This document shows positions 1,246 through 15,736 of a stretch of 20,000 bases of DNA, piece after piece (positions within the stretch are counted from its first letter, which is position 1; each line of letters starts with the position of its first letter). The position numbers and the translations under genes were made by a program. Origin of the DNA: an uncultured virus (IMG/VR IMGVR_UViG_3300029705_003980) (taxonomy: Duplodnaviria > Heunggongvirae > Uroviricota > Caudoviricetes). The stretch lies in IMG/VR virus record IMGVR_UViG_3300029705_003980; one strand, 5' to 3'. The notes under the pieces are model-generated. The model was not told the origin of the DNA. It ran no database searches and saw only the letters and a program-made list of their open reading frames with translations.

Positions 1246-1626
1246 ATGAAACATGAAGCTATAGACCAATTAAGGTATCAGGGATTTGGTTACAGAAGAA
1301 TTGCCGCTATGCTCGGTATGCCCGAAGGCACAGTTAAATCATATTGTCGCAGACATCCTTTTGATATAAAGCAGAAGGTATGTTTTGAATGTGGGACACC
1401 AATTCAAAATACACCTCATAAGCGTGAAAAGAAATTCTGCTCGGATAAGTGCAGACAAAAATGGTGGAATAGCCATTTAGACCTTGTAAAAAGGAAGGCT
1501 ATCTACCATCTCACTTGTGAGCATTGTGGATGTGATTTTGAAAGTTATGGAAACAACCACAGAAGGTTCTGCTCTCGAACTTGTTATGCAAATTACAGAC
1601 GAAAGGTGGCTGAACCAAATGGATAA
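1246..1626 (+). CDS. HTH (sigma70 region 4-like) plus two Zn-finger motifs; LSR-associated protein
   Basis: AAGGAG RBS. HTH segment GFGYRRIAAMLGMPEGTVKSYCRR, then CFEC..FCSDKC and CEHC..FCSRTC. Confidence 0.8.
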   Translation: MKHEAIDQLRYQGFGYRRIAAMLGMPEGTVKSYCRRHPFDIKQKVCFECGTPIQNTPHKREKKFCSDKCRQKWWNSHLDLVKRKAIYHLTCEHCGCDFESYGNNHRRFCSRTCYANYRRKVAEPNG

Positions 1627-1780
1627 GGATTTGTTTAGTGCTATTACAGCATATAAAACCACAATGGCGGCTTTTAAAGTTATGTTGAATAAAGGTCTTA
1701 TTTCTGCTTCTGAATACAAAGATATTGACACAAAAATTGCACAAAAATACGGGTTATCTTTGTCGGTTATATATCGATAA
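1619..1780 (+). CDS. Small SHOCT-like protein (53 aa) preceding the LSRs
   Basis: GAAAGGTGG RBS at 1601-1609 and ATG at 1619 overlapping the previous gene. MLNKGLISASEY..ID is a SHOCT-type motif. Confidence 0.75.
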   Translation: MDKDLFSAITAYKTTMAAFKVMLNKGLISASEYKDIDTKIAQKYGLSLSVIYR

Positions 1781-1848
1781 ATAGTGCCTGAAACCCTTGA
1801 CTTTACGGCACTTTAGAGCAAATATATGGTAAAGAAAAGGAGGTAAAA

Positions 1849-3156
1849 ATGGATAGAATAATTAAGCAAGTGGTGTTTGCTGCACCCACAATAATAACTG
1901 CGTTAAAGGTTGCTGCATATACGAGAGTTTCAAGCGGAAAAGACACTATGCTTCATTCACTTTCTGCACAGGTGAGCTACTACTCAAAGTACATTCAAGA
2001 ACATCCCGGTTGGATTTACTGCGGTGTTTATAGCGATGAAGCAATTACCGGGACAAAGGAAAGTAGGAAAAATTTTCAAAAGCTACTTCAGGATTGCAAA
2101 GCCGGGAAAATTGACCTTGTTATAACAAAGAGCATTTCAAGATTTGCCCGTAATACAGTAACACTTCTTGAAAACATTCGAGAATTAAAAAATCTCGGTG
2201 TTGGAGTTTTCTTTGAAGAGCAAAACATAAACACGCTTACAGCTGACGGAGAGCTTATGCTCACAATTCTCGCATCGTATGCACAAGAGGAGAGTTTGTC
2301 AGCAAGTGAGAATGCAAAGTGGAGAATTCATAAAGATTTTGAAAAAGGGATTCTTCCTAAAAATGTTCAGAACATTTATGGCTTCAACCGAACCGAAGAT
2401 GGTGGATTTGAGATAATTCCCGAAGAAGCAGAAATCGTTAAGGATATCTTCAACCTTTACCTTGAAGGCTTTGGATTTTTGAAAATCGCTCAACACCTTA
2501 ACGAACTTGGAGTTGAAAGCAATACGAGAGAGAAATGGTCGGATAAAAAAGTAAAGTACATACTTTCCAATGAGAAATATGTCGGTGATTTGCTTTTGCA
2601 GAAATCATTTGTTGTCGACCATTTAACAAAAAAATGCAAAAACAATAATGGCGAGAAACCTCAATATTATGTCAAGGACAACCATCAAGGCATTGTTTCA
2701 CGAGAAATATTTGAGGCTGTGCAAGAAGAAATAAAGCGAAGACAACTAAAATACGGCAAGCAACTCACAGTAGTTCCTACATATTTGTTTACAGGGAAAA
2801 TGCAATGTGGCATATGCGGAAAGAATTACCGAAGAAAAATCATTAGAGGGAAACCTATATGGAGATGCCCAACATTTGATAGGTTCGGCAAAAAGGAATG
2901 TCCATCGAAGCAAATCCCCGAAGATATATTGATTGATTTGACTATGGAGGTATTGGGTACAAAAACAGTTGATATGAGGGTTTTCAATAAGAAAATTTCA
3001 AAGATGTTTCTACCTTCTGCTGACCGCATAATATTTGAGTTTACAGATGGACATACCATTAAAAAAACATGGCAAAATCGGTCACGCAGCCAAAGTTGGA
3101 CAGATGAAATGAAGGAACAAGCACGGCAACATACTTTGAAGAGGAGGAAATACTAA
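1849..3156 (+). CDS. Large serine recombinase 1 (resolvase, recombinase and Zn-ribbon domains; short C-terminus)
   Basis: AGGAGG RBS. Catalytic YTRVSS, DEAITG, KSISRFARN, NEKYVG and the CGICG..C..C Zn ribbon. Confidence 0.95.
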   Translation: MDRIIKQVVFAAPTIITALKVAAYTRVSSGKDTMLHSLSAQVSYYSKYIQEHPGWIYCGVYSDEAITGTKESRKNFQKLLQDCKAGKIDLVITKSISRFARNTVTLLENIRELKNLGVGVFFEEQNINTLTADGELMLTILASYAQEESLSASENAKWRIHKDFEKGILPKNVQNIYGFNRTEDGGFEIIPEEAEIVKDIFNLYLEGFGFLKIAQHLNELGVESNTREKWSDKKVKYILSNEKYVGDLLLQKSFVVDHLTKKCKNNNGEKPQYYVKDNHQGIVSREIFEAVQEEIKRRQLKYGKQLTVVPTYLFTGKMQCGICGKNYRRKIIRGKPIWRCPTFDRFGKKECPSKQIPEDILIDLTMEVLGTKTVDMRVFNKKISKMFLPSADRIIFEFTDGHTIKKTWQNRSRSQSWTDEMKEQARQHTLKRRKY

Positions 3157-4739
3157 TGGCAAAAGCGGTAACAGTAATACCTGCCACAATACACCCATTA
3201 ACAAAACTGCCATCTTTAACGATGATGCTTCGCAGAACCTGCGGTTATGCAAGAGTATCAACAGATAAAGACGAGCAATTCACATCTTATGCTGCACAGG
3301 TAGATTATTATACGAATTATATTAAATCAAAGCCTGAATGGGAATTTGTGAAGGTTTACACGGATGAAGGAATCACAGGAACTAATACAAAAAAACGTGA
3401 TGGCTTCAACGAGATGATTCAAGATGCTCTTGACGGAAAGATTGACCTCATAGTTACCAAGTCTGTAAGCAGATTTGCAAGAAACACCGTAGACAGCTTG
3501 GTAACCATCCGCAAGCTCAAGGAAAAAGGTGTAGAGGTTTATTTTGAGAAAGAGAACATATGGACACTTGACAGCAAAGGTGAATTGCTCCTTACCATAA
3601 TGTCGAGCCTTGCACAGGAAGAAAGTAGAAGTATTTCCGAGAATGTAACTTGGGGCAAAAGAAAAAGTGCATCCGATGGAAAAATCAGTCTCGGATATAA
3701 GCAGTTCCTCGGTTACGACAAAGGTCCCAACGGAACTCTCATTGTGAACAAGGAACAGGCGGTCATCGTTAAGCGAATTTATAAAGAGTTTATGCAAGGC
3801 AAAACACCTTGTATGATTGCAAAAAGATTGACCCAAGAAGGAATTAAGACTCCTTCCGGCAGAGGAAAAAAGTGGAATGTAAGCGTTATTATGAGTATTC
3901 TAACAAACGAAAAATATAAAGGCTCGGCTCGACTTCAAAAGAGTTTTACTGTTGATTTCCTTTCAAAGAAAATAAAGAAAAATGAAGGCGAAGTTCCACA
4001 GTATTATGTTGAGAACAGCCACGAAGCTATCATTCCGCCCGATGAATGGGAAAGGGTTCAGAAGGAGTTAATTAGAAGAAAGAGTTTCGGCAGAAAATAC
4101 AGCGGAAACAGTATTTTTTCAACAAGGATTGTGTGTGGAAATTGCGGAGCATTCTTTGGCTCAAAGGTATGGAATTCAACCGATAAAAAATATCGTCGAA
4201 CCATATGGCAATGCAATGATAAGTTCAAAGGCGAAACACGATGTGCGACACCGCACTTAAGCGAAGAACAGCTAAAGGAAGCATTTATAACAGCATTCAA
4301 CCGATTGTTTGATAACAAGGATGAAATTATCGGAAATTGCACAACGATTGTGGAAATGCTGACCGACTGCACGGAGCTTGATAAAAAAATAGAAACCCTA
4401 CACCAAGAACTGGAAGTAATAGCGGAAATGGTACAGAAGTGTGTTGATGAAAATGCCTCAACCATTCAAAACCAAGATGAATACCTACAGCGTTATAACG
4501 GATTTGTAGCTCGATACGAGGAGGGGCTTGAAAAACTCCAAAAATATGAAAATGAAAAGGTACTACGCATAGCAAGGGGTGAATCCTTCAACGATTTTAT
4601 GAAAGCGTTTATTAACATAGACAGCAACATAATCGAATTTGACAACGACCTATGGGTTTCAACAGTTGAGAAAGTGAATGTAATGCACGATGGCAAACTG
4701 ATATTTGTTTTTCAAAATGGAACGGAGATTGAGGTTTGA
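3156..4739 (+). CDS. Large serine recombinase 2 (with Zn ribbon and coiled coil)
   Basis: YARVST, DEGITG, KSVSRFARN, NEKYKG, CGNCG..C..C and a heptad-rich C-terminus. TAATG stop/start overlap with LSR1. Confidence 0.95.
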   Translation: MAKAVTVIPATIHPLTKLPSLTMMLRRTCGYARVSTDKDEQFTSYAAQVDYYTNYIKSKPEWEFVKVYTDEGITGTNTKKRDGFNEMIQDALDGKIDLIVTKSVSRFARNTVDSLVTIRKLKEKGVEVYFEKENIWTLDSKGELLLTIMSSLAQEESRSISENVTWGKRKSASDGKISLGYKQFLGYDKGPNGTLIVNKEQAVIVKRIYKEFMQGKTPCMIAKRLTQEGIKTPSGRGKKWNVSVIMSILTNEKYKGSARLQKSFTVDFLSKKIKKNEGEVPQYYVENSHEAIIPPDEWERVQKELIRRKSFGRKYSGNSIFSTRIVCGNCGAFFGSKVWNSTDKKYRRTIWQCNDKFKGETRCATPHLSEEQLKEAFITAFNRLFDNKDEIIGNCTTIVEMLTDCTELDKKIETLHQELEVIAEMVQKCVDENASTIQNQDEYLQRYNGFVARYEEGLEKLQKYENEKVLRIARGESFNDFMKAFINIDSNIIEFDNDLWVSTVEKVNVMHDGKLIFVFQNGTEIEV

Positions 4740-4755
4740 TATACAAAATAGAACA

Positions 4756-4797
4756 AACCAAAATATATCAGTTATTTACAAAAATGTAGTTTGAGCA
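4756..4797 (+). repeat. Left copy of a 42-bp imperfect inverted repeat (putative recombination or binding site)
   Basis: AACCAAAATATATCAGTTATTTACAAAAATGTAGTTTGAGCA matches the reverse complement of 11487-11528 at 36/42 positions without gaps. Confidence 0.85.
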
Positions 4798-4828
4798 TTA
4801 GCAAAACCCCTTATTTTAAGCGAAAAAC

Positions 4829-4862
4829 AAACTGCTCCTGTTTTGTTGACAGGAGCAATTTT
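4829..4862. terminator. Probable bidirectional terminator between convergent operons
   Basis: Stem TGCTCCTGT (4833-4841)/ACAGGAGCA (4849-4857) with A-rich left and T-rich right flanks. Confidence 0.75.
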
Positions 4863-4870
4863 AAGCAAAG

Positions 4871-5779
4871 TTATTCTTCATCATTTTCTTCAGAAACAGG
4901 GTTGGAGTATTCGCCATCATAGTTCTCAAAAATGTCATATGGAACATCGTCCGAATAATCTTCATCATCGTCAATGAAATCAAAGGTATTGTCGTATAGC
5001 TTGTTTATAGAGAGCCTGAACGCCTTGTTCTTTTTCTTGCCGTTGTATGTTATAACCATAACTTCGGCAAATCCCATTGAACCGGGGCGTCGCTCTCTTG
5101 CACTTCTACTGAGTATTTTGGGGGTCAAAGCACCAATCTTGTCCTTAAACTCCTCATCGTCAAGACTTTTGTTGTATGTAACTATGAGTTTCGCTATAGC
5201 CTTTAGGATGTTGGCAGTAAAGGAATCACAATCTCCTTCCCAAGTTCCGACACAAATCCTTAAGGTTCTACTGAGGACATGAATGCCGTATTTTTGATAA
5301 ATCATTTCAAGTGTTGAAACCGCACCGATAACTCCGGGCGATTTTCTTAACCCTATCTCTAAACCAAAAGACTCAACAACCTCTTTTATAATAAGCTGGT
5401 CGTGATTTCCGGCTTCAATATTTGCCATAAACACTTCGTATGGCTTGAGACCTTTGACAAACTTCATCTGATTTGCAAAAATATCAGCTTCATGTTCATA
5501 GCTCAAATCGTCATAAATCATACACCACACAGGCGTTTCACGAGACCCGGAAACAAGTGCCACAATTTCAATGGTATGCTGACCATTAAAGACATAGTTT
5601 ATACCATTACGGCGGCTGACTTTTACAGGATTAATTTGGTACAAATCAAAATGCTCTGCAGCCTTTTCCACATGAGCTTCTGAAAGGCTACGCTGATAGT
5701 CTTGGTTGGAGACAAGGTTTTTGATAGGTATCTGTTCAAAATGTACTTGTGGTACAAAAGGATTAAATTCTTCCATCAT
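4871..5779 (-). CDS. ParB/Srx-fold (DUF6551/DGQHR-like) protein with acidic tail
   Basis: YQRSL and VFNGQHT motifs. AAGGAGG RBS; start is 5779 (ATGA overlap with the upstream stop) or 5776. Confidence 0.7.
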   Translation of the reverse strand: MMEEFNPFVPQVHFEQIPIKNLVSNQDYQRSLSEAHVEKAAEHFDLYQINPVKVSRRNGINYVFNGQHTIEIVALVSGSRETPVWCMIYDDLSYEHEADIFANQMKFVKGLKPYEVFMANIEAGNHDQLIIKEVVESFGLEIGLRKSPGVIGAVSTLEMIYQKYGIHVLSRTLRICVGTWEGDCDSFTANILKAIAKLIVTYNKSLDDEEFKDKIGALTPKILSRSARERRPGSMGFAEVMVITYNGKKKNKAFRLSINKLYDNTFDFIDDDEDYSDDVPYDIFENYDGEYSNPVSEENDEE

Positions 5780-6735
5780 TCCGCCTCCTTTATTGAAGCA
5801 AGTAAATCTTCTGCTTTTTCTATTAGTGAACACAATACCTTTATCAGTTTATTTCTTGCAGTATCTGATACAATATTTAAGTTTGCATGGCTTTGCGTTC
5901 TGTTTATGGAACTAACCCACGATGGTATCGTAAGTGTTAGTTCGGTAACCTCTGCATCCGGGTCAAATTCAGGCATATTTTTAATACTTGGTGTTACTGG
6001 CTGCTCTTCTGCGGCAGCAGAACCTATGGCTTTTCTTGAACTGCTGTATTTGAAATACGCTTTATGGCTCCGATTCATCCGCCGATTTACTTCACGAAGT
6101 TCATCCTCCGGCATATTCGCAAGGTCAATAATGTTTTTGTGTGAAATTTTATACCTTCCTGACAGTATTTTGGGAACAAGCTCCGGGACTTTACTTCCGA
6201 TCTGCTCAAGCGACCTTGTATACACAGCATATTTTTGAACTGTTCCTGCTGACACATTGTTTTCTTCACCGATTTTTCTTGCAGTTCTTATGCCAGAAAA
6301 ATTAGGATTTGGAGAGGCAAAATAATCTTCATCGGATATACTTTCATCGTAATTACGGTCAGAAGTATATTGATTATGCCCGGTTGGGTTTTTTCGGCTG
6401 CTGATAACTTTTTCGGTTTCATACTGCATTCCTATTAAAAATTTTCTTGTTTCATCGGAAATGTTACGTCTGCCGAGCTGATTGGCACATATCCAAGCAA
6501 TCGCATCTTCTTTTGACTCGAAGTCCATTTCTCTAACTTCGTAGGGAATGTTATGGCGAGTACATATTTCATATCTGTTATGTCCGTCAACAATAAAGCC
6601 TTTCCAAGTGATGATAGCTTCCCGGCATCCATCTTTCAAGATGTTCTCTTCAAGCTGTAAATATTCTTGACGGAGTAAGGGGCGTATTAAGTTTTTGAAC
6701 TCTTTATTTATTTTTAGCGGTTTTCGTCTTTCCAT
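5776..6735 (-). CDS. ParB N-terminal-like domain protein with central HTH
   Basis: LEENILKDG..IIT...IVDGHNRY (GxxR) and NQLGRRN motifs; HTH-like TARKIGEENNVSAGTVQKY. GGAGG RBS before ATG 6735. Confidence 0.8.
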   Translation of the reverse strand: MERRKPLKINKEFKNLIRPLLRQEYLQLEENILKDGCREAIITWKGFIVDGHNRYEICTRHNIPYEVREMDFESKEDAIAWICANQLGRRNISDETRKFLIGMQYETEKVISSRKNPTGHNQYTSDRNYDESISDEDYFASPNPNFSGIRTARKIGEENNVSAGTVQKYAVYTRSLEQIGSKVPELVPKILSGRYKISHKNIIDLANMPEDELREVNRRMNRSHKAYFKYSSSRKAIGSAAAEEQPVTPSIKNMPEFDPDAEVTELTLTIPSWVSSINRTQSHANLNIVSDTARNKLIKVLCSLIEKAEDLLASIKEAE

Positions 6736-6746
6736 AATTGCCTCCA

Positions 6747-7121
6747 TCAATTCTCTATGCGAGTAAGCGTTTTCATAGAAAAAACTGCCATATTATGAGA
6801 TGATACAATATTCCCGGTTAGCCTGTACGAACAATTCATTTCTAAATTACCAACTACACTAATCAGTTTTTTTACAAACGACATACTATACAACTCATAG
6901 GAGTTATCTGCCATAAGTTTTTGCGGTTTGATTTTTTCGGATTGGTCACCCGGAACAGCTTTTTCAACAGCTCTTATTGCAACACATTTATTATCTGGAT
7001 TTACAAGTAATTGAATATATGGAGGGTCACCAAGTAACCGAAGCATACTTTTATAAATTCTGATTCGGTACTTCTTCAAATCAACAGAAATTGTGACCGC
7101 AGGATTTGGGGTTTCTGTCAT
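6747..7121 (-). CDS. Hypothetical protein, single copy of the domain shared with the neighbouring genes
   Basis: AGGAGGTG RBS and ATGA overlap. IQLLVNPDNKCVAIR and SYRLTG motifs are shared with the two upstream proteins. Confidence 0.8.
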   Translation of the reverse strand: MTETPNPAVTISVDLKKYRIRIYKSMLRLLGDPPYIQLLVNPDNKCVAIRAVEKAVPGDQSEKIKPQKLMADNSYELYSMSFVKKLISVVGNLEMNCSYRLTGNIVSSHNMAVFSMKTLTRIEN

Positions 7122-7879
7122 ACCGATTCACCTCCTATGCTCGGATTTGGTACAGGAACAATATCAGTAGATTTATTTTCCTCCGTATTATCTTTTATGG
7201 AATACACAGCATATCCTTCAACAATGTTAATCTGCATAGACTGCTTATGCTCATTAAAAGGTAAACCGAACTGGTCTTGCCATTCAGCCGGGAAAACAGG
7301 AGTCCTCGAAGTTTTAGGCTTTCCGCCTTCTGGTGTGGTTCTCTGGTATACTTCAGTAGCTGTTAAGTCAAAAGCTAAAAGGTACTCGTCATTGGAGTGA
7401 ATGAGCTTGCCAAGCATTTTATACCTATGATTCGGATTCCAATCCATAAGTGAAACGACTTTTGCAAAAAACAATTTACAAGTAATTTGCTTTGATTTTC
7501 TCTTTCCGTTTGAAACTGTACACCATTGAAAGGAGTCTCTTGAACCTTCTTCGCAGGGGCGAAGTGCAAGGATTTTTTTCTGCCTGTTAATTAAGACTTG
7601 AGCATAATCGAAATTTGGGAATTTTGATAAGCACGCTGCATTGACATAGAATTTACAGTTATTGAAAGTACACGAAGGTTCTCGCATATGTGCAAAGAAT
7701 TCACGTCTAACAACCTGAAATCCATCAAAATCAAAATCCTCTCCCATATCAAGTATTTCATCATCCTCTGCCAACAGAGGAAAATTTTCAGGCTTGCGAA
7801 CTGCCATATTTGCATTTGCAGGTTCACCAACTGACCTCAAAATTTCAGACAATGTATTTTGTCCGTCAAACTCATTCAT
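7118..7879 (-). CDS. Recombinase-associated protein, paralogue of the LSR3 C-terminal domain
   Basis: AGGAGGT RBS. DFDFDGFQVVRREFF, QVLINRQKKILALR, WNPNHRYKMLG and FPAEWQDQFG align with the LSR3 C-terminus. Confidence 0.8.
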   Translation of the reverse strand: MNEFDGQNTLSEILRSVGEPANANMAVRKPENFPLLAEDDEILDMGEDFDFDGFQVVRREFFAHMREPSCTFNNCKFYVNAACLSKFPNFDYAQVLINRQKKILALRPCEEGSRDSFQWCTVSNGKRKSKQITCKLFFAKVVSLMDWNPNHRYKMLGKLIHSNDEYLLAFDLTATEVYQRTTPEGGKPKTSRTPVFPAEWQDQFGLPFNEHKQSMQINIVEGYAVYSIKDNTEENKSTDIVPVPNPSIGGESV

Positions 7880-9773
7880 TACTGCTTACCTCCTGTAAAT
7901 CAATATCTCTTAATTCTTGTTGTATGTATCTTCGCAGTTCCTCAAAGCTCGTTACATTCATTTTCTTGCCTGTTTCATAAAGATGTCCTTCGATGCGAAG
8001 TTTCCATTCGTGTTCGCTTTGTGTCTCAAGCTCTTCAATGGAATGTTCGTGCAGATAGTATTCCTTACCGAAATTATTTGTCCACGATTCAGGTATAGCC
8101 CTTATACGCTTCCCATAAGGAGTTAAAGGCTGCATCTTTACGCAAGTTGAAAACGGCTCGTCCTCTGCCATTTTTGGCACAAGGTGCGGCTTAAGGAACG
8201 CCTCGGTGTTTGCTGTGTCAAAAATGTAGGCAACTTGAGAACCTTCTACAAGCTCCGTTCCTGTTATACGATACCTAAAGTCATCGTTCCAGCCGAACAA
8301 AGAGTAGATGGTCTTACCGAAAGCTGCCGTTGAAATATTACGAGGAATAAACCTCTGTCCGCTTATCTTTGAACATACAACGCTCTGACGATTATCACTA
8401 TTCGTAGTCCTAACAGCGAATTTTCGTGTGATAGGATTTACAAGCAATTCAATATGATTGTTGTTACCGATTTTGTTAGTACAACTTGCACTTAACGATA
8501 TATGCTTATCTCCAAAATTGATAATAGGCCTATGGAATGTGTCAAACAGCTCCATTCGTGCTACCTCAAAGCCACGAAGGTCAAAATCCCCGGCTTCAAC
8601 CTCAACAGTAACTTCCTCTGCTTTTTCAATGTTGGGGTCATAGTCGGGACCATAAACGCTGTGTGATGCCTTGAGATAATCCGTTTCTTTAAAAGATGCC
8701 CAACGAGGATTTATCACAACAAAGCCTTTTAATATTCCGCTATCAATAACTCGCAGTTCGGGAAGGTATGCCTTATTGCGATACTTTGCATTATCAAGCA
8801 TTCGCTGAACAGCAAGAAAATCATCCCTTGATACAATTGCTTCGTGATGATTTTTATAGATGCTCTGTGGCTTTTGTCCTGTGTTTTTCATTGTTTTTCG
8901 CTCACGATAATTGAGTTTGAACCTTTTCCTTGTTTTAACATAACCACAATGCCGTTCATTTCGGAGTATTTGAACCACGCCTCCGGCTGTCCATTTTATA
9001 TTGCCGAGGTAAGATTTACGCCCCAAAGCAATAAGAACATCTGCAATTTGCTTTGTTGAATATCCGTAAAGGTACATATAAAAAACAAGTTTTACGGTTG
9101 GTGATTCTTCGTGGTTAATGATTAGGTTACCTTCGCTATCGTGTGTATATCCGAGCAACTTTGGAGTAAGCGGGATACCATTGTCAAGCCTCATTCGGAG
9201 AGAGGTTTCCATACTTCTGCTTCTTGTGTGGGACTCTTCCTCTGCCATAGTAGCAATAAATGATAGTGCCATTTGCGAGTCATCATTTAAGGTGAAAATT
9301 GCCTCCGATTCAAAGAATACACCAACGGGAGATTTCAGTTCTGCCAGTTCTCGTACTAACTGAATCGTATCTACAAGGTTACGAGCAAAACGGGAAACAT
9401 TCTTTGTGATAATTAGGTCAATTTTCCCGGCTCGGCAGTCATTCAACATTTTATTGAAATCATCTCTGTAATCTTTAGAAGTTCCGCTTATGCCCTCATC
9501 TGCGTAAATGTGGACGAGTGTCCAATTTTCACGGCTTCTGACAAAATCTTCATAGTATATTTTTTGAAGCTCAAAGGAAGTGGTTTGTCTTTCATCATCT
9601 GTTGACACACGTGCATAGACAGCAACTCTCTGTGGCACATCTGTATCGTAATAATCACGTTGTTTTTGGGCAGGAATGTACTCATAGTTTTCTTCGTCTA
9701 TTTGAACGTGCATTCGCTGCCTTTGCTTTTCTCTTGAATGTTCCTTTGACATTCGCTTATCGTTATCAATCAC
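7872..9773 (-). CDS. Large serine recombinase 3, no Zn ribbon, atypical C-terminal domain
   Basis: GTG start with AAGGAGG RBS. YARVST, DEGISG, KNVSRFARN, LRNERHCG and HEAIVS motifs. No CxxC ribbon after the recombinase domain. Confidence 0.92.
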   Translation of the reverse strand: MIDNDKRMSKEHSREKQRQRMHVQIDEENYEYIPAQKQRDYYDTDVPQRVAVYARVSTDDERQTTSFELQKIYYEDFVRSRENWTLVHIYADEGISGTSKDYRDDFNKMLNDCRAGKIDLIITKNVSRFARNLVDTIQLVRELAELKSPVGVFFESEAIFTLNDDSQMALSFIATMAEEESHTRSRSMETSLRMRLDNGIPLTPKLLGYTHDSEGNLIINHEESPTVKLVFYMYLYGYSTKQIADVLIALGRKSYLGNIKWTAGGVVQILRNERHCGYVKTRKRFKLNYRERKTMKNTGQKPQSIYKNHHEAIVSRDDFLAVQRMLDNAKYRNKAYLPELRVIDSGILKGFVVINPRWASFKETDYLKASHSVYGPDYDPNIEKAEEVTVEVEAGDFDLRGFEVARMELFDTFHRPIINFGDKHISLSASCTNKIGNNNHIELLVNPITRKFAVRTTNSDNRQSVVCSKISGQRFIPRNISTAAFGKTIYSLFGWNDDFRYRITGTELVEGSQVAYIFDTANTEAFLKPHLVPKMAEDEPFSTCVKMQPLTPYGKRIRAIPESWTNNFGKEYYLHEHSIEELETQSEHEWKLRIEGHLYETGKKMNVTSFEELRRYIQQELRDIDLQEVSSNE

Positions 9774-10389
9774 CTAAAAGCCTCCTTTCTTGGAGTAGTT
9801 TAATTGCTTCTTCTTCATCATCCGGGAGAACTTTCCAATTAGGTGAAGGAAGGAACTCTGTATCTCTTAAATCTTCAGTATGATAAGAGGCAAGTGTATA
9901 AATATCTTCTGAAACGATGTATATACCAACAGGAGGTGTCTGTGCCGCAAGTAACCTTGATAACAAAATTAAGTCTTCCTCATATTGTGTTATATTCTTC
10001 TTTTTTTGAGTTATTATGAGGTCAACTTTTCCATTCATTGAATCATCTATAAGTCTTACCAATTCAGGAGAGTATTTCATTTTTGGTGCGGTATTGCCTT
10101 CGTCTATATAAAAGTCCACAAACTTCCACTTTGGGCAAAGGGCAATGGTGTCCAAGAACTGCTTTTTATGATGTGCGAGATAGTTTTCGTGCTTTGTTTG
10201 GTTGAAGTATCTGATATATACGCCTATCTTATACTCCTTTGTTGTACTCGGGCGCTCGTGCCGAATGGTCTGCAGCCAAGCCTTATGCTCTGCAATTTTA
10301 ATAGCCTGTTCCGATGTTTCCCCAAATGTGAGAGCAAACTGCGGTGTAGCTATGGCATTTAATTTATCAAATACTTCAAGTTCGTCCAT
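9766..10389 (-). CDS. Resolvase-fold protein lacking catalytic residues (207 aa)
   Basis: GGAGG RBS before ATG 10389. Recognisable fold motifs (W.FVDFYIDEG, GKVDLIIT), but YIRYF replaces YxRVS and QKKKNIT replaces KSxSRFAR. Confidence 0.8.
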   Translation of the reverse strand: MDELEVFDKLNAIATPQFALTFGETSEQAIKIAEHKAWLQTIRHERPSTTKEYKIGVYIRYFNQTKHENYLAHHKKQFLDTIALCPKWKFVDFYIDEGNTAPKMKYSPELVRLIDDSMNGKVDLIITQKKKNITQYEEDLILLSRLLAAQTPPVGIYIVSEDIYTLASYHTEDLRDTEFLPSPNWKVLPDDEEEAIKLLQERRLLGD

Positions 10390-10426
10390 GTTGTACCTCC
10401 ATAAAAATAGTTTCAGTAACATTTTA

Positions 10427-10440
10427 TATCCAATTGGATA
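10427..10440. promoter_or_regulatory. Perfect 14-bp palindrome TATCCAATTGGATA upstream of the recombinase operon; candidate XRE operator
   Basis: Seen directly. The related site TATCCGATAAGATA at 11002-11015 overlaps the XRE promoter. Confidence 0.55.
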
Positions 10441-10448
10441 AATAAACC

Positions 10449-10484
10449 ATAAACCCACAGTCAGGTGCTTGACTATGGGTTTAT
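10449..10484. repeat. 36-bp dyad site A
   Basis: ATAAACCCACAGTCA-GGTGCT-TGACTATGGGTTTAT has 15-bp arms with one mismatch and is 28/36 identical to 11444-11479. Confidence 0.8.
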
Positions 10485-10512
10485 AAAATCAAAAAATTTA
10501 TTCAAAATATAC

Positions 10513-10554
10513 AAAAAAAGAGTGAGACTAATTCATCTTGAATTCATCTCACTC
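10513..10554 (-). terminator. Rho-independent terminator of the leftward XRE gene
   Basis: Hairpin GAGTGAGA-CT-AATTCA-TCT-TGAATT-CA-TCTCACTC overlaps the stop codon and is followed by T7 on the minus strand. Confidence 0.75.
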
Positions 10555-10912
10555 AATAATCGTTATTTTCCTTTGGGGTATGCAAGGTTGTCTTTACTTG
10601 CTTCACAATCTTTATGATTGATTCTATTTCAGAAGGACTACAATCCGATAGCAGTTCGGAATATTCTTTTTGATACAGCTCGTTCACTTCCGGGGTGTCG
10701 GGACGAAGAATAATATCCGCTGAAACTTGAAGTGCCTCAACAATTCTTACGAAGGTTGTGAGCCACATTTTGCTTTTTCCAAGTTCAATATCACTTAAAT
10801 TGGAAGGTGAAATGTGAGCTTCAAAAGCGAGGTCATTTTGTGTCATCTTCTTGGACAGGCGGATTTCTCTGATTCGCTGACCTATTTCTTTAGTTTTCAG
10901 TTTTTCGTCCAA
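10553..10912 (-). CDS. XRE-family HTH transcriptional regulator (left)
   Basis: IGQRIREIR..KKMTQNDLA...ISPSNLSDIELGK. Likely TTG start at 10912 behind GAGGTG. Confidence 0.9.
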   Translation of the reverse strand: MDEKLKTKEIGQRIREIRLSKKMTQNDLAFEAHISPSNLSDIELGKSKMWLTTFVRIVEALQVSADIILRPDTPEVNELYQKEYSELLSDCSPSEIESIIKIVKQVKTTLHTPKENNDY

Positions 10913-10989
10913 AAATAACACCTCACTTCGTCATTTGACTATATTTATGATACATTTTATCATCACTTGGATATATTGTGAATAGCGAG

Positions 10990-11019
10990 TTGGATAGATA
11001 TTATCCGATAAGATATAAT
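10990..11019 (+). promoter_or_regulatory. Putative sigma-A promoter of the rightward XRE, overlapped by dyads
   Basis: TTGGAT-N18-TATAAT. Overlapped by GGATA-N5-TATCC (10992-11006) and TATC-N6-GATA (11002-11015). Confidence 0.5.
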
Positions 11020-11053
11020 GTTAAGTGAAATATTTTTTAAGGAGGAAAAATAT

Positions 11054-11389
11054 ATGGAACTTAACTACATCATTATCGGAAAGCGAATTAAGGAGGTGAG
11101 AAAAAAGAGAAAATTATCGCAAGAGGCTCTTGCAGAACTTATTGAAAAAAGTCCGCCCTATATCAGTTACATAGAAACTGCAAAAAAGCACTTGAGTTTG
11201 GAAACGCTGATTGATATAGCAAATGCATTACACATTTCCGTTGATTCACTTCTGGCGGCAAATGTCCTGTATAAAACGGAAGTTAGGGATGAGTTCAGCG
11301 AACTTATGAGCGATTGCGAAGAATACGAAAAGCGAATAATTGTTGACACAGTTAAAACTCTAAAACAATCACTTCGTTTGGAACTTTAA
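11054..11389 (+). CDS. XRE-family HTH transcriptional regulator (right)
   Basis: AAGGAGG RBS. IGKRIKEVRKKRKLSQEALAE...SPPYISYIETAK. Confidence 0.92.
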   Translation: MELNYIIIGKRIKEVRKKRKLSQEALAELIEKSPPYISYIETAKKHLSLETLIDIANALHISVDSLLAANVLYKTEVRDEFSELMSDCEEYEKRIIVDTVKTLKQSLRLEL

Positions 11390-11443
11390 CATTCCCGATT
11401 TTCTCATTATTTGCTATTATATTCGATTATAAAACAATTAACC

Positions 11444-11479
11444 ATAAACCCGTTGTTATAGGCTTGACTACGGGTTTAT
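11444..11479. repeat. 36-bp dyad site B
   Basis: ATAAACCCGTTGTTATAGGCTTGACTACGGGTTTAT. Perfect 11-bp arms at 11443-11453 and 11470-11480; direct repeat of site A. Confidence 0.8.
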
Positions 11480-11486
11480 GAAAAAG

Positions 11487-11528
11487 TGCTCAAACTACAT
11501 TTTCGGCAAAAACTACTATATTTTGGTT
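11487..11528 (-). repeat. Right copy of the 42-bp imperfect inverted repeat
   Basis: TGCTCAAACTACATTTTCGGCAAAAACTACTATATTTTGGTT; its reverse complement matches 4756-4797 at 36/42. Confidence 0.85.
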
Positions 11529-11554
11529 GAAAACGAGATTTTTAGCACACTATT

Positions 11555-11563
11555 TGGTATAAT
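11555..11563 (+). promoter_or_regulatory. Extended -10 promoter of the phosphoesterase operon
   Basis: TGGTATAAT (TGn plus consensus -10) just before the GGAGG RBS at 11571. Confidence 0.6.
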
Positions 11564-11582
11564 TATATGCGGAGGTTTTATT

Positions 11583-12290
11583 ATGATTTACTATACTGGA
11601 GATATACACGGCGAACCCTCAAGGGTGATTAAATTTGCCGATAAATTGAACTTAACAAGCAAAGATACGATTGTTATTCTTGGTGATGTCGGTGCAAATT
11701 ACTTTCAGGATTTCCGTGACGAAATAACGAAAAAGAAGTTAAATGACATCGGTGTAACAATTCTTTGTATTCACGGAAATCACGAAGTCCGTCCGGCAAA
11801 TATCCCTTCATACTCATTGATGGTTTGGGAAGGTGGCAAAGTGTGGTATGAGGATAAATATCCAAACCTATTATTTGCTAAAGACGGAGAAATATATACT
11901 CTCAATGGTATGCGTTATCTTGTTGTAGGCGGAGCGTACAGCGTGGACAAACACTACAGACTTGCAATGAACAGAGGCTGGTGGGCAGATGAGCAGCCTT
12001 CGGATGAAATCAAGCATTATGTTGATAGTCAAATTGTGAAAAATGAAATTGATGTTGTTCTTTCTCACACTTGTCCGCTTAAGTTTGAACCGACAGAAGC
12101 ATTCTTGCCGGGAATCGACCAAACAAGTGTGGATAAAAGCACAGAAATATGGCTTGATGAAATTGAAGAAAGGATATCATATAAAGCGTGGCTCTGCGGT
12201 CATTGGCATATTGATAAGAGTATAAATAACTTTCATTTTCTTTTTAATTCTTGGAAAAGTGCTGCAGACATTTTCGTAGAAAGTGAGTGA
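11583..12290 (+). CDS. Calcineurin-like metallophosphoesterase 1
   Basis: GDIHG, LGD, GNHE, SHT and GHWH motifs. GGAGG RBS before ATG 11583. Confidence 0.9.
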   Translation: MIYYTGDIHGEPSRVIKFADKLNLTSKDTIVILGDVGANYFQDFRDEITKKKLNDIGVTILCIHGNHEVRPANIPSYSLMVWEGGKVWYEDKYPNLLFAKDGEIYTLNGMRYLVVGGAYSVDKHYRLAMNRGWWADEQPSDEIKHYVDSQIVKNEIDVVLSHTCPLKFEPTEAFLPGIDQTSVDKSTEIWLDEIEERISYKAWLCGHWHIDKSINNFHFLFNSWKSAADIFVESE

Positions 12291-12726
12291 TATTATGGGA
12301 AAATATAAATTTTTACAGCCAGTCGAGGAAATGGAACACATAAGCCGAGCCGAACTTGGTGAACGCTTTGATGAAATTCTCGAAGCCTGCGAAAAGGATA
12401 ATGTAGGCTTTGTAATTACCGACTGCGGAAAAAATGATGTTGTTTTATGTCCTGCTCGTTGGATTGATTTTAGGTTCGATGATGATTTCGGCTGTATAAT
12501 GAATTGTGCAGTCAGATATGCACTCGGAAGAAACACCTATATGCCCGGTCTTGTATGTGATTTTGTGCGTAAATATATGAGTATTTTTGATGCAAAAACC
12601 ATTGATGTTATCATTCAGGACATTGACAGGGATTTAGAGTTCGGTTTAGACCAAAAAGAACTCTGGATTTCATTAAAGAACGACCTTCTCAAGTTTAAGG
12701 AAACGCGGGGTGATAAGAATGAGTGA
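12283..12726 (+). CDS. Hypothetical protein with a Phd/YefM-like N-terminal domain fused to a phage-type helical domain
   Basis: ISRAELGERFDEILE....VGFVITDCGKNDVVLCP fits the Phd pattern; the C-terminus contains AVRYALGRNTY. Start is 12283 or 12295. Confidence 0.6.
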   Translation: MSDIMGKYKFLQPVEEMEHISRAELGERFDEILEACEKDNVGFVITDCGKNDVVLCPARWIDFRFDDDFGCIMNCAVRYALGRNTYMPGLVCDFVRKYMSIFDAKTIDVIIQDIDRDLEFGLDQKELWISLKNDLLKFKETRGDKNE

Positions 12727-13351
12727 AAAATATTATATCTTTCAATTGGATGACCCTGCTACACCCGGTTTCTGTTCTTTTAACAAATTATATGTTGGCA
12801 CAGAAGCTGATTTGATGCATGTGGCAAATAATCTTGAAAAAGAAAATCACTACCACGAAACAGTTGCGGCATTACGAAGCTACTTTAATGGGAATAGAGA
12901 TGCAACGCACAGAATTGCATATTCTACAATGAAAATACTTACACCGATTGATATTGAATCCGAGCATAAAATTTCATTTGGTGAAAAGAAATGGACACAC
13001 ATTAACATTTGGGGATTCCCATATGAAATGAAGTGTGATTCCGGCATTACACATCAAATCGTTTTCAAACACGATGATAAATACTATCGCTGCATTCGTG
13101 CATGGCTTAAGAATTTATGTTATGAAAGTGTCAATGGCGAATGGCATCAATTAACTGATGGCTTTTGGGGAAATTACTCAATTCTTGATGTATCTTTTAT
13201 GCCTGATAAGAAGAATTTCACATTCAATAATCTTCTGTATGTAATTGAAGAAATTTATGAGGATGAGGTAAAAAAAGCTATTGACGATTTGCTTTTAGAA
13301 GAAAAGATAGAGATGAAAGGCATCTGTGATGAAATTTTCGCAGATGGTTGA
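12719..13351 (+). CDS. Hypothetical protein
   Basis: 210-aa ORF abutting or overlapping its neighbours in the operon; no motif recognised. Confidence 0.75.
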   Translation: MSEKYYIFQLDDPATPGFCSFNKLYVGTEADLMHVANNLEKENHYHETVAALRSYFNGNRDATHRIAYSTMKILTPIDIESEHKISFGEKKWTHINIWGFPYEMKCDSGITHQIVFKHDDKYYRCIRAWLKNLCYESVNGEWHQLTDGFWGNYSILDVSFMPDKKNFTFNNLLYVIEEIYEDEVKKAIDDLLLEEKIEMKGICDEIFADG

Positions 13352-13356
13352 ATGCA

Positions 13357-13542
13357 ATGGTACTTGAAACAATAACATTGGAAATTGAAACAAAACTATA
13401 TGAAGAGGCTAAAGAAGTAATCGAAAAAGAAGGCTACACCATTGAAGAGGCAATTATAATGTTTTTTAAGGCGTGTATTGCTTGTGGTGGGTTTCCTTTT
13501 CCTGTGTCAAAGGAGGAATTGCTCGAAGCTCAAGGAGGATAA
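13357..13542 (+). CDS. RelB/DinJ-like ribbon-helix-helix antitoxin-type protein
   Basis: ITLEIETKLYEEAKEVIEKEGYTIEEAIIMFFKA....GGFPF matches the RelB/DinJ pattern. Confidence 0.7.
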   Translation: MVLETITLEIETKLYEEAKEVIEKEGYTIEEAIIMFFKACIACGGFPFPVSKEELLEAQGG

Positions 13543-13545
13543 CAA

Positions 13546-14271
13546 ATGATATATGTACTTTCCGATATACACGGAAACACGGAGAGGTTTAATTCTATAA
13601 TGGAACAGATAAATCTTCAGCCGGAAGACACTTTATACATACTCGGTGATGTTGTAGACCGATATCCCGATGGAATTAAGCTCTTAAGAAAAATAATGAA
13701 AATGGATAATGTGAAAATGCTTCTTGGAAACCACGAATATATGATGCTGAATGCTCTTGACCCTATCAGCGAAAGAGATGAATGGGAGCAGGAACGCTCG
13801 CTTCGGTTGTGGTATAGGAATGGTGGTTTTGTCACTCATAACTATTTGAAGCATATACGAAAAGATATACGAAGAGAGGTTTTTAACTTCCTACGAAAGC
13901 TCCCTGTAAATATCAAGATTGAGGTTGGGGGCAAAAAATTCTTGCTTGTTCACGGCTCACCTTTAGAGAATTATAGTTGGATATTCCGAGAATATGAAAC
14001 GAAAGAAAAGTTTGCTGTTTGGGAAAGATGGCAGCCCTTTGACCCTGTTCCCGAAGGATACACTTTGGTGTTCGGTCATACACCTACTATCCATTTCCAA
14101 AACAATGACCCATTGGAGATTTTATTTTGTGATAATGCAATAGGAATTGACTGTGGTTCGGGGTTTCCAAAATCACAATTTGAGGGAGAAACTATCGGCA
14201 GACTTGCTTGTTTAAGACTTGATGATATGAAGATTTTCTACTCGAAGGAAGAAGGTGCAAATAATGGCTGA
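13546..14271 (+). CDS. Ser/Thr protein phosphatase-like metallophosphoesterase (PPP/lambda/PrpA type)
   Basis: SDIHG, GDVVDR, GNHE, W..NGG, VHG, FGHTPT and IDCG motifs; AAGGAGG RBS. Confidence 0.9.
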   Translation: MIYVLSDIHGNTERFNSIMEQINLQPEDTLYILGDVVDRYPDGIKLLRKIMKMDNVKMLLGNHEYMMLNALDPISERDEWEQERSLRLWYRNGGFVTHNYLKHIRKDIRREVFNFLRKLPVNIKIEVGGKKFLLVHGSPLENYSWIFREYETKEKFAVWERWQPFDPVPEGYTLVFGHTPTIHFQNNDPLEILFCDNAIGIDCGSGFPKSQFEGETIGRLACLRLDDMKIFYSKEEGANNG

Positions 14272-15521: not shown

Positions 15522-15731
15522 ATGGCTGTCTCTTATAATAAGCTATGGCACATATTGATTGATAGAAAAATGCGAAAAAAGGACTTGCAGGAAGCAGCCG
15601 GACTAACACCACACATTATGCTTGTTTTACGCAAAAATAAGCATATTACAACTACAACAATATGGAAAATATGCAAAGCTCTAAACTGCACCGCAGATGA
15701 TTTTTTGGAGTTTGTTGAAGTGGAGGGTTGA
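15522..15731 (+). CDS. Cro/C1-type (HTH_26) small regulator
   Basis: AGGAGGTG RBS. SYNKLWHILIDRKMRKKDL...KICKALNC..DD. Confidence 0.88.
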   Translation: MAVSYNKLWHILIDRKMRKKDLQEAAGLTPHIMLVLRKNKHITTTTIWKICKALNCTADDFLEFVEVEG

Positions 15732-15736
15732 TACTG

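What the first reader, a model, noticed from the sequence alone, without database searches (positions are those of the whole stretch)
4756..11528. A 42-bp inverted repeat brackets the recombinase/ParB operon and both regulators: candidate 6.7-kb invertible (or self-contained mobile) module
Seen: 4756-4797 (AACCAAAATATATCAGTTATTTACAAAAATGTAGTTTGAGCA) and the reverse complement of 11487-11528 (AACCAAAATATAGTAGTTTTTGCCGAAAATGTAGTTTGAGCA) are 36/42 identical. The 12-bp and 17-bp outer arms are perfect and all mismatches lie in the middle. Each site is itself quasi-dyadic (CAAAATATA...TGTAGTTTG), and both keep a near-central TT (4775-4776; 11508-11509 on the minus strand). The sites fall exactly on module borders: 16 bp after the LSR2 stop and just before the phosphoesterase promoter. 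Known: LSR att sites are about 40-50-bp imperfect dyads that need a matching central dinucleotide, and inverted sites give inversion. Inference: LSR3 or the LSR1/2 pair may flip this segment. That would swap the 4829-4862 terminator with the rightward XRE and site B at the head of the cargo operon. Alternatively the sites are element ends or protein-loading sites.
Basis: partly seen in the sequence, partly recalled or inferred. Interest (0 to 1): 0.85.

Follow-up and report, generated by a model that had tools for sequence, protein, structure and literature searches.

The report
Paired tandem-box sites flanking phage lysogeny module
The 42-bp inverted repeat is real and conserved in related gut phages, but it looks like two copies of a protein-binding control site, one wired to the early promoter, and not like the ends of a flippable DNA segment.

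Summary
By score alone it is only mildly unusual, since 1 of 60 random sequences matches it. Its weight comes from relatives. Eight related phage or prophage genomes carry both copies at the same two borders, and the copies of one genome resemble each other more than they resemble their orthologues.

Each arm is two direct AAAATRTA boxes 21 bp apart and has no dyad symmetry. The right arm (B) is the upstream element of the early promoter. In 31 of 35 distinct family sites its box edge lies exactly 33 nt from a TATAAT-like -10. The left arm (A) is a second, clade-restricted copy fused to a small palindrome, at the junction of an insertable HTH-LSR1-LSR2 module and the LSR3/ParB-like operon.

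The module kept one orientation in 99 of 101 relatives that show the regulator, and in contigs from three studies. I read the arms as paired binding sites for one unidentified protein. Inversion is unsupported but not excluded, because no raw reads were available. An earlier scan note described the LSR3 operon on other DNA.

The parts
4756..4797 (+). Site A, left arm of the inverted repeat. Box 1 is AAAATATA at 4760-4767 and box 2 is AAAATGTA at 4781-4788, 21 bp start to start.
   Evidence: The same site type lies after the ParB-like gene in L015, L017, L018, L026, L043, L137-L139 and L146.
4733..4759 (+). Small palindrome GGTTTG-N15-CAAACC abutting site A. It overlaps the LSR2 stop codon and holds a third box-like word, AAAATAGA, at 4745-4752.
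   Evidence: Read. The arms covary in relatives: GGTTTGTA..TACAAACC in L039 and GGTCTGTATC..GATACAGACC in L202. It is present next to A-type sites only.
4829..4861 (-). Terminator-like hairpin ending the minus-strand LSR3/ParB-like operon.
   Evidence: 13 pairs, T-rich tail. The stem CTCCTG..CAGGAG is conserved in relatives.
11487..11528 (-). Site B, right arm of the inverted repeat. On the minus strand, box 1 is AAAATATA at 11517-11524 and box 2 is AAAATGTA at 11496-11503.
   Evidence: Homologous tandem-box sites follow the plus-strand XRE gene in 35 distinct family sites.
11529..11563 (+). Early promoter coupled to site B: weak -35 region GAGATT at 11535-11540, TG at 11555-11556, and -10 TATAAT at 11558-11563. 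The -10 starts 33 nt from the outer edge of box 1.
   Evidence: sequence; the same 33-nt spacing in 31 of 35 distinct B-type sites, 2 more at 32 nt, and TG-extended in 27 of 35.
11444..11480 (+). Palindromic hairpin after the plus-strand XRE gene. It is a sister of the hairpin at 10447-10486 after the minus-strand XRE gene.
   Evidence: (D1, I4). A core AGTCA..TGACT with covarying stems recurs in relatives.
4871..10458 (-). Six-gene operon enclosed by the repeat. Genes: ParB-like DUF6551 (4871-5833), h324 (5776-6750), h124 (6747-7121), h253 (7118-7879), LSR3 (7872-9773), and a resolvase-like protein without the catalytic serine (9766-10389 or 10458).
   Evidence: Synteny is conserved in the viral and genome LSR3 loci.
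10553..11389 (.). Divergent XRE pair: minus-strand gene 10553-10921 and plus-strand gene 11018 or 11054 to 11389. The palindromes ATGATA-N5-TATCAT (10947-10963) and GGATA-N5-TATCC (10992-11006) overlap the predicted divergent promoters.
1246..4739 (+). HTH126-LSR1-LSR2 module, an insertable block whose right border abuts the palindrome of site A.
   Evidence: L026 and L289 have lysis terminator, then palindrome, then boxes, with no such block between; the LSR2 search matched more than 550 viral stretches, and 80 loci were kept.

Best explanation
The two arms are two copies of one sequence-specific protein-binding element. Each is a pair of direct AAAATRTA boxes two helical turns apart, about 29 bp of core. 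Copy B is the upstream control element of the phage early promoter. Its boxes would centre near -50 and -71 of an extended -10 promoter with a poor -35. That is where an activator sits, or a repressor that works by looping or contact with polymerase. Copy A is a second, inverted copy placed 6.7 kb away, where the late/LSR1-LSR2 operon and the LSR3/ParB-like operon converge, and it is fused to a small palindrome. One protein that binds both copies would tie early-promoter activity to the far border of the lysogeny module. It could do so by looping the module, or by co-regulating the recombinase module next to A. Shown: the architecture, the fixed promoter spacing, positional conservation, within-genome matching of A and B, and constant orientation. 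Inferred: that a protein binds, which protein it is, and the looping or co-regulation.
For: 1) Box architecture: both arms and 39 distinct family sites fit AAAATRTA-N13-AAAATRTA, with a conserved spacer (consensus acG AAAATGTA aTcG.ttTT.gcG AAAATgTA). All six A/B mismatches in the window fall in the spacer. 2) Promoter coupling: in 31 of 35 distinct B-type sites a hexamer within one mismatch of TATAAT starts exactly 33 nt from box 1. Two more are at 32 nt, and 27 of 35 are TG-extended. Of 11 A-type sites, 8 have no such hexamer and 3 have one at scattered distances of 18, 45 and 50 nt. 3) Conservation: both copies sit at the same two borders in the window, L015, L017, L018, L026, L137, L138 and L139. 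4) Matching within genomes: A-B identity within a genome is 36, 36, 34 and 34 of 42 in four genomes, against 22-31 for orthologous A-A and 24-30 for B-B. Only 2 of 120 permutations of five lineages reach the observed sum. 5) The box type next to a recombinase gene matches the same family's promoter boxes in another lineage: AAAACATATACAC in L202/L039 and in the B sites of L030/L036. 6) Specificity: in 43 viral loci scanned on both strands, only 2 tandem-box hits lay outside the A and B positions. 7) The XRE switch has its own palindromic operators of a different sequence, so a separate binder is plausible. The LSR3 C-terminal domain occurs three times in the operon, and its best, though weak, fold match is MraZ.
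Against: No binding protein is identified and no binding was tested. Copy A has no promoter at the B-type distance, so its role rests on analogy. The matched sequence just beyond box 2 (GTTTGAGCA in the window and L015, GACAC in L017, GACA in L137-L139) varies between lineages. That fits sequence exchange between the arms as well as it fits co-selection by a protein. Two of seven genomes in the table (L018 at 23 and L026 at 26 of 42) show no excess A-B identity. Copy A is absent from 57 of 60 genome loci tested, so it is dispensable for the family. All loci were fetched through LSR3 or LSR2 similarity, so co-occurrence with the operon is biased. The fold match is weak: Z 3.8, Foldseek E 0.09, model mean pLDDT 60.7.
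Confidence: 0.6

Rival explanations
1. Invertible segment: LSR3 (with its accessory proteins) or LSR1/LSR2 recombines A with B and flips the lysogeny module. The early operon would then sit behind the LSR3/ParB-like operon instead of behind the plus-strand XRE gene.
For: There is an inverted pair of near-identical sites with three serine recombinases nearby. LSR3 keeps the YARVST catalytic motif. The two arms evolve in concert within genomes. Serine recombinase accessory sites can be direct repeats (recalled: Sin site II). Only assembled contigs could be laid, and these drop rare variants.
Against: Orientation is the same in 27 of 28 viral and 72 of 73 genome loci that show the regulator. The two exceptions (L052, L187) do not have the arrangement an A x B inversion would give. 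Contigs from three studies bridge A (X3, X7, X8), and from two studies bridge B (X7, X8), in the reference orientation. None of the 15 joints displayed (of 32) lies at either site. The arms have no dyad symmetry. The centre is their least conserved part. B is fixed to the promoter at single-nucleotide spacing in relatives that lack A. Characterised serine integrases act only on unlike attP/attB partners (PMC3556126).
Confidence: 0.1
2. Recombination-module site: copy A (palindrome plus boxes) is the attachment or regulatory site of the insertable HTH126-LSR1-LSR2 module. The boxes there are accessory or directionality-factor sites, and B is a regulatory twin bound by the same factor. This would be a Cox/Apl-like double use.
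For: In L026 and L289 the block HTH126-LSR1-LSR2 is missing between the lysis terminator and the palindrome, so its right border abuts the palindrome. The palindrome-plus-boxes unit lies directly upstream of an HTH126-like gene in L289 and of a recombinase gene in L202 and L039. LSR2's last codons are supplied by the palindrome's left arm.
Against: The LSR2/site A/ParB-like junction is unbroken inside contigs of 228 kb and 126 kb (L138, L139), so it is not the site split by prophage integration there. Whether those contigs are chromosomal was not checked. Closer LSR2 relatives (L060, L063, L064; 67-71% identity) have no such site after LSR2. No hybrid or empty site pair was found. A-type sites also occur with no recombinase gene adjacent (L026, L043).
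Confidence: 0.2
3. Terminal inverted repeats of a 6.7-kb transposable or self-contained mobile module.
For: A 42-bp inverted repeat encloses a recombinase operon and its regulators.
Against: The flanks show no direct duplication: AGAACA on the left and GAAAAC on the right. The enclosed genes are the phage's own immunity/switch region. They keep the same neighbours in 50 of 50 genome loci and 18 of 18 viral loci that have recognisable early genes. Most of these lack the repeat. The right arm is part of a promoter shared by the whole family.
Confidence: 0.03
4. No function for the pairing: A is a neutral remnant of a duplicated or recombined promoter-upstream element.
For: The raw repeat score is matched in 1 of 60 random sequences. 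A is absent in most of the family. A has no promoter.
Against: A persists at the same border across lineages whose LSR3 is only 53-70% identical (L017, L026, L043, L137). It keeps both boxes intact and stays matched to B.
Confidence: 0.07

Closest known systems
Paired or auxiliary operators flanking a phage immunity region (lambda OL/OR looping, coliphage 186 FL/FR, TP901-1 OR/OL/OD). Recalled, not from a call.
   Same: Two related sites several kb apart, in mirror orientation, enclose the repressor/switch genes. One of them sits at the early promoter.
   Different: Those operators are palindromes bound by the repressor, and both lambda sites carry outward promoters. Here the sites are tandem direct boxes, the XRE switch has separate palindromes, site A has no promoter, and the binder is unknown.
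P2 Cox and 186 Apl sites: a factor that is both excisionase and regulator. Recalled.
   Same: Tandem direct repeats on one DNA face occur twice, once at a switch or early promoter and once beside the recombination module.
   Different: Those systems use tyrosine integrases and a small winged-helix protein. No such protein or att core is identified here, and the A junction is not split in the large contigs seen.
Serine-integrase attP/attB sites (Listeria phage A118; PMC3556126, abstract and passages read).
   Same: Size of about 40-50 bp, position next to a large serine recombinase gene, and the fact that inverted sites in cis would give inversion.
   Different: attP and attB are unrelated in sequence and only unlike partners recombine. 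A and B are 86% identical, lack symmetry-related halves, and vary most at the centre.
Hin/Gin-type invertible segments and gut-bacterial invertons. Recalled.
   Same: Short inverted repeats with a serine recombinase gene inside or beside the segment.
   Different: Those sites are 26-bp dyads and both orientations coexist in populations. Only one orientation is seen here, and the segment carries the whole lysogeny module.
MraZ on its multi-box promoter (PDB 9sz7 and 1n0e; titles).
   Same: A regulator that reads a row of direct-repeat boxes. MraZ is the top, though weak, fold match of the domain that LSR3, h253 and h124 share.
   Different: The match is weak (Z 3.8, rmsd 3.2 A over 84 residues; Foldseek E 0.09), there is no sequence similarity, and binding was not tested.

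Membership tests
Large-serine-recombinase attachment sites (attP/attB) | Length of about 35-55 bp, next to the recombinase gene | tested here: met
   The sites are 42 bp, and A lies 16 nt after the LSR2 stop. B is not next to a recombinase gene.
Large-serine-recombinase attachment sites (attP/attB) | [quoted passage not shown] | tested here: not met
   A and B are 36 of 42 identical and of the same type.
Large-serine-recombinase attachment sites (attP/attB) | Symmetry-related half-sites around a central crossover dinucleotide | tested here: not met
   9.7 of 42 positions are self-complementary, against 11.9 in shuffles, over 39 sites. Caveat: A118 attB itself has essentially no symmetry, so this feature is not universal.
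Large-serine-recombinase attachment sites (attP/attB) | Recombinant junctions (hybrid sites, split or inverted forms) exist | tested here: inconclusive
   None appeared in 122 related loci or in contigs of 4 runs. Raw reads were not available.
Invertible DNA switch (Hin/Gin type, invertons) | Inverted repeats bracket the segment, with a recombinase gene in or beside it | tested here: met
Invertible DNA switch (Hin/Gin type, invertons) | Both orientations occur in populations or relatives | tested here: not met
   One orientation in 99 of 101 loci that show the regulator, and the two exceptions are not A x B products. Contigs of three studies bridge in the reference orientation. Rare flipping is not excluded.
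Transposon terminal inverted repeats | Target-site duplication, and the unit found at unrelated sites | tested here: not met
   There is no flanking direct repeat. The unit always has the same neighbours.
Promoter-coupled operator or activator site | Fixed position relative to the core promoter across relatives | tested here: met
   Site B: 33 nt to the -10 in 31 of 35 distinct sites. Site A: not met.
Promoter-coupled operator or activator site | Bound by a defined regulator that changes transcription | not testable with these tools
   No protein-DNA tool was available. The candidates are only listed.
ParB-type loading site (parS) | Palindromic site near the parB-like gene, bound by a ParB-CTPase-fold protein | tested here: inconclusive
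   A lies about 75 nt beyond the stop of the DUF6551 gene. DUF6551 proteins carry a ParB-CTPase fold and bind CTP or ATP (bioRxiv 10.1101/2025.10.10.680097, passages). However, the boxes are direct repeats, not a palindrome, and binding is untested.

The most novel reading that the evidence does not exclude
The paired sites are the DNA targets of the composite LSR3 cassette. That cassette holds an active serine recombinase whose zinc ribbon is replaced by a MraZ-like box-reading domain, two free copies of that domain, a serine-less resolvase and two ParB-fold proteins. The cassette would synapse the two borders of the lysogeny module. The synapse would either hold the early promoter in a repressive or insulated loop, or on rare occasions flip or resolve the module. 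That would be recombinase machinery repurposed as a lysogeny switch in a very common family of gut Clostridia prophages.
Probability: 0.15. Interest if true: 0.8.

Novelty: new variant of a known kind. Interest (0 to 1): 0.45.

Why it matters
The family is abundant. The LSR3 search confirmed 126 relatives in the one-genome-per-species collection (best 80 kept) and 44 in viral contigs. Named records include Flavonifractor, Pseudoflavonifractor, Lawsonibacter, Intestinimonas, Angelakisella and Christensenellaceae. Its early promoter carries a tightly positioned, previously undescribed tandem-box element. Identifying the protein that reads it would give a handle on how these gut prophages decide between lysogeny and lysis. 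It might also show what the uncharacterised LSR3/ParB-like operon does. The negative result matters too: an inverted repeat beside serine recombinases is not by itself evidence of an invertible switch.

Tried and rejected
1) Searching the window's own genome: the assembly is not held. I used the nearest record, G001, which is identical in the tested 501-nt stretch and has the same arrangement.

2) The phage collection holds no close relative. There were only two 350-nt matches at 77% identity, in Blautia and Faecalimonas phages.

3) Two metagenome-contig scans for the site gave 0 and 72 stretches. None of the 72 is related to the window beyond the seed, so a wide census of junction types was not possible.

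4) Read laying used Logan contigs only, with no raw reads, so rare inversion cannot be judged. X18 gave only short pieces and bridges neither site among the listed pieces.

The 78 new loci examined were unrelated repeats or chance matches. A stricter pattern found only cassette-bearing contigs, 5 of 5, but these are close kin.

6) I tried to assign the binder by covariation of the XRE recognition helices with box type. The boxes turned out to be variants of one family across all lineages, so the test has no power.

7) PADLOC gave no hit for 11 proteins. Rfam gathering thresholds gave 0 families and there are no tRNA genes. The atlas search for h253 returned only unnamed phage clusters. A profile of h253 against PDB sequences gave 0 hits at E up to 10.

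8) Other LSR1/LSR2-bearing regions of genome G002 were fetched to look for a split site A. They hold no tandem boxes.

9) I considered the boxes as sigma-70 -10 elements and as a cre-like site in the family consensus. Both were rejected on reading the sequences: the first position is not conserved, and the window's own sites lack the cre core.

Full report
**Observation.** Positions 4756-4797 and the reverse complement of 11487-11528 agree at 36 of 42 positions. The outer 12 and inner 17 nt are perfect and all six mismatches lie in the 13-nt middle.

Site A begins 16 nt after the LSR2 stop. Site B ends 29 nt before TGGTATAAT (-10 at 11558-11563), which precedes the first phosphoesterase gene; that gene starts at 11583, not 11478.

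Taken alone the repeat is only mildly unusual:
- The 17-nt arm occurs exactly twice, against 0.17 expected; 4 of 200 shuffles reach two or more.
- The 12-nt arm is at chance level.
- 1 of 60 Markov random sequences of the same length holds an equally scoring inverted match.

The longer inverted pair reported (2092-2153 with 9379-9440) is coding similarity between LSR1 and LSR3 on opposite strands.

**Context.** The window is phage-like. The gene order is:
- Plus strand: holin, amidase, a small HTH/zinc-ribbon protein (HTH126), LSR1 and LSR2.
- Site A, then a terminator.
- Minus strand: a six-gene operon, followed by an XRE gene.
- Plus strand: a second XRE gene, a hairpin, site B, and a long operon with three metallophosphoesterase paralogues.

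The six-gene operon holds a DUF6551 ParB-like protein, h324, h124, h253, LSR3 and a resolvase-like protein.

The window's own assembly is not held. The nearest record, G001, is identical over the tested stretch and has the same arrangement.

LSR3 keeps the YARVST motif but gave no zinc-ribbon hit. The small resolvase-like protein has YIRYFNQT in that place, so it lacks the serine (the motif itself is recalled). LSR3 residues 369-580 are homologous to h253 (E 4e-19) and to h124 (E 5e-5). This agrees with an earlier scan note on other DNA (e1-5850799).

**What each arm is.** Each arm holds two direct boxes, AAAATATA and AAAATGTA, 21 bp apart start to start. The same AAAATRTA-N13-AAAATRTA layout recurs in relatives. 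The window and 122 related loci yielded 39 distinct sites. Their consensus is acG AAAATGTA aTcG.ttTT.gcG AAAATgTA.

About their centre, 9.7 of 42 positions are self-complementary, against 11.9 in shuffles, so there is no dyad symmetry. The direct-repeat score in that call is inflated by the search pattern and I do not use it.

In the 43 viral LSR3 loci, only 2 tandem-box hits lay away from the two homologous borders.

**Site B belongs to the early promoter.** Relatives share one order: XRE gene, hairpin, two boxes, weak -35 region, TG-extended -10, ribosome site, phosphoesterase gene. Among the 35 distinct B-type sites:
- In 31, a hexamer within one mismatch of TATAAT starts exactly 33 nt from the outer edge of box 1.
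- In 2, the distance is 32 nt.
- In 2 (L017, L139), the script picked a nearer hexamer, but the printed sequence also shows a one-mismatch hexamer at 33.
- 27 are TG-extended.

By my arithmetic, the boxes would centre near -50 and -71.

Lineages with variant boxes (for example GTGTATATGTTTTTGG in L030 and L036) keep the same layout and spacing.

**Site A is a second, clade-restricted copy.** Both copies are present in the window, L015, L017 (and its sister contigs), L018, L026, L137, L138 and L139. In a direct comparison of the two border regions in 60 genome loci, only L137 and L139 clearly beat their own shuffles. L138 carries both sites by pattern, and the other 57 show nothing.

None of the 11 A-type sites has a -10 at the B-type distance: 8 have none and 3 have one at 18, 45 or 50 nt. 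Their outer flank is instead a small palindrome, GGTTTG-N15-CAAACC at 4733-4759. Its arms covary in L039 and L202, and it encloses a third box-like word.

**Matching within genomes.** A-B identity within a genome is 36, 36, 34 and 34 of 42 in the window, L015, L017 and L137. It is 28, 26 and 23 in L138, L026 and L018. Orthologous A-A identity is 22-31 and B-B is 24-30. With one genome per lineage (five lineages), 2 of 120 permutations reach the observed within-genome sum.

Box 2 and the bases after it change together in both arms: AAAATGTAGTTTGAGCA, AAAATGTAGACAC and AAAATATAGACA. This is real concerted evolution. It fits co-selection by one binding protein. It also fits sequence exchange between the arms, and I cannot separate the two.

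**Orientation.** Among loci that show the plus-strand XRE homologue, the arrangement is the same in 27 of 28 viral loci and 72 of 73 genome loci. Another 14 viral and 7 genome loci do not reach the XRE gene. Recognisable early genes are co-directional with that XRE gene in 18 of 18 viral and 50 of 50 genome loci.

The two exceptions are L052 and L187. In L187 the XRE gene with its boxes faces the operon, so that all genes run the same way. An A x B inversion would not give either arrangement. Four distant relatives (L047, L048, L049, L054) have a unidirectional layout without the XRE pair.

Logan contigs also bridge the sites in the reference orientation:
- Site A: X3 (3223-4939, no differences), X7 (3467-10077) and X8 (4069-5021).
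- Site B: X7 (10148-14985) and X8 (10714-12017).

None of the 15 joints displayed, of 32, lies at either site. Contigs drop rare variants, so low-frequency flipping is not excluded.

**Module borders.** HTH126-LSR1-LSR2 behaves as an insertable block. In L026 and in L289 (a second contig of the genome that holds L137), the lysis-gene terminator is followed directly by the palindrome and boxes. In the window the block sits between them, and the palindrome's left arm supplies the last LSR2 codons.

The palindrome-plus-boxes unit lies just upstream of an HTH126-like gene in L289. It lies just upstream of a recombinase gene in L202, and of a degraded one in L039. Copy A is therefore linked to recombinase modules in several layouts.

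It is not the site split by prophage integration where that can be judged. The LSR2/site A/ParB-like junction is unbroken inside contigs of 228 kb and 126 kb. I did not verify that these are chromosomal. Closer LSR2 relatives (67-71% identity) lack the site altogether.

**Who binds.** This is unknown.
- **XRE switch operators.** The switch region has its own palindromes, ATGATA-N5-TATCAT and GGATA-N5-TATCC, over the predicted divergent promoters. The XRE proteins therefore probably have other operators; this is an inference.
- **XRE covariation.** Covariation between XRE recognition helices and box type has no power, because the boxes are one family throughout.
- **The triplicated domain.** The domain shared by LSR3, h253 and h124 is a candidate. 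The h253 model has mean pLDDT 60.7, with the core at about 65-185 scoring 77-90. Foldseek found nothing at E of 0.001 or better. MraZ on its four-box promoter ranked 13th, with E 0.093 and probability 0.54, the highest probability in the list. The Foldseek-independent search put MraZ (1n0e_A) first at Z 3.8, rmsd 3.2 A over 84 residues, followed by plant B3 DNA-binding domains at Z 2.2-2.8. These are weak matches and only a lead.
- **ParB-like proteins.** DUF6551 proteins have a ParB-CTPase fold and bind CTP or ATP (bioRxiv 10.1101/2025.10.10.680097, passages). That keeps a loading-site reading open.
- **A counter-case.** A small capsid-plus-LSR element (L077, L078) carries a tandem-box site beside TGGTATAAT in the opposite orientation, with no cassette on its 12.6-kb contig. 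This argues against a strict link to the cassette.

**Comparison with known systems.** Characterised serine integrases recombine only unlike attP and attB sites, whose sequences are unrelated, and they exchange strands at a central dinucleotide (A118 paper PMC3556126, abstract and passages). That paper also notes that A118 attB has essentially no symmetry, so the lack of a dyad is not decisive on its own. The near-identity of A and B and their variable centre do argue against that model.

The closest functional analogues I know are recalled and not drawn from any call. They are paired operators around immunity regions (lambda, 186, TP901-1) and the double-duty direct-repeat sites of P2 Cox and 186 Apl. 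The SPbeta repressor MrpR appeared only in a search listing and I did not read that paper.

My literature searches turned up no description of this site or of the operon. They were few and keyword-bound, so I make no claim that it is absent from print.

**Verdict.** The invertible or mobile-module reading is unsupported. The best reading is two copies of one protein-binding tandem-box element: one is built into the early promoter, and the other sits at the recombinase-module border of the lysogeny region. Interest is moderate. The element is conserved, precisely positioned and apparently undescribed, but its binder and the role of the second copy remain inference.

Noticed in passing
window 10447-10486 and 11444-11480: Both XRE genes are followed by sister palindromic hairpins (79% alike as direct repeats). 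Relatives keep an AGTCA..TGACT core while the outer stems covary. This could be a terminator with a conserved protein or processing site.
   Followed up: partly
window 1246-4739; L026, L289: HTH126-LSR1-LSR2 is a discrete insertable block. It is present after the lysis genes in many viral contigs (the LSR2 search matched more than 550 stretches). It is absent at this position in L026 and L289, and it sits at the end of the early operon in L026. Many viral contigs end within about 100 nt after LSR2.
   Followed up: partly
window 7872-9773 (residues 369-580), 7118-7879, 6747-7121: The C-terminal domain of LSR3, which replaces the usual zinc ribbon, recurs in h253 and h124. Its weak best fold match is MraZ (Z 3.8). 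The small upstream resolvase-like protein lacks the catalytic serine.
   Followed up: partly
L187 (Anaerotignum neopropionicum record) 8017-14909: Here the XRE gene, its hairpin and a tandem-box site all face the six-gene operon on one strand, with no early phage genes or LSR1/LSR2 nearby. This looks like a solitary, rearranged copy of the cassette.
   Followed up: partly
L077/L078 (viral contigs), L077 5275-7878: This is a small element with a capsid gene directly upstream of HTH126-LSR1-LSR2. It has a tandem-box site beside TGGTATAAT in the opposite orientation to site B. Two roughly 55-nt direct repeats lie at about 5640-5790. It may be a satellite-like element that borrows the same control site.
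   Followed up: no
window 10947-10963 and 10992-11006: The palindromes ATGATA-N5-TATCAT and GGATA-N5-TATCC overlap the predicted divergent XRE promoters. They are probably the operators of the XRE pair.
   Followed up: no
window 11583-12290, 13546-14271, 15728-16513: The early operon holds three calcineurin-like metallophosphoesterase paralogues, interleaved with small RelB/Phd-like and HTH proteins. That is an unusual load for a phage early region.
   Followed up: no
window 2092-2153 and 9379-9440: The longest inverted repeat in the window (62 nt, 79%) is coding similarity between the catalytic domains of LSR1 and LSR3 on opposite strands. It is not a site.
   Followed up: yes
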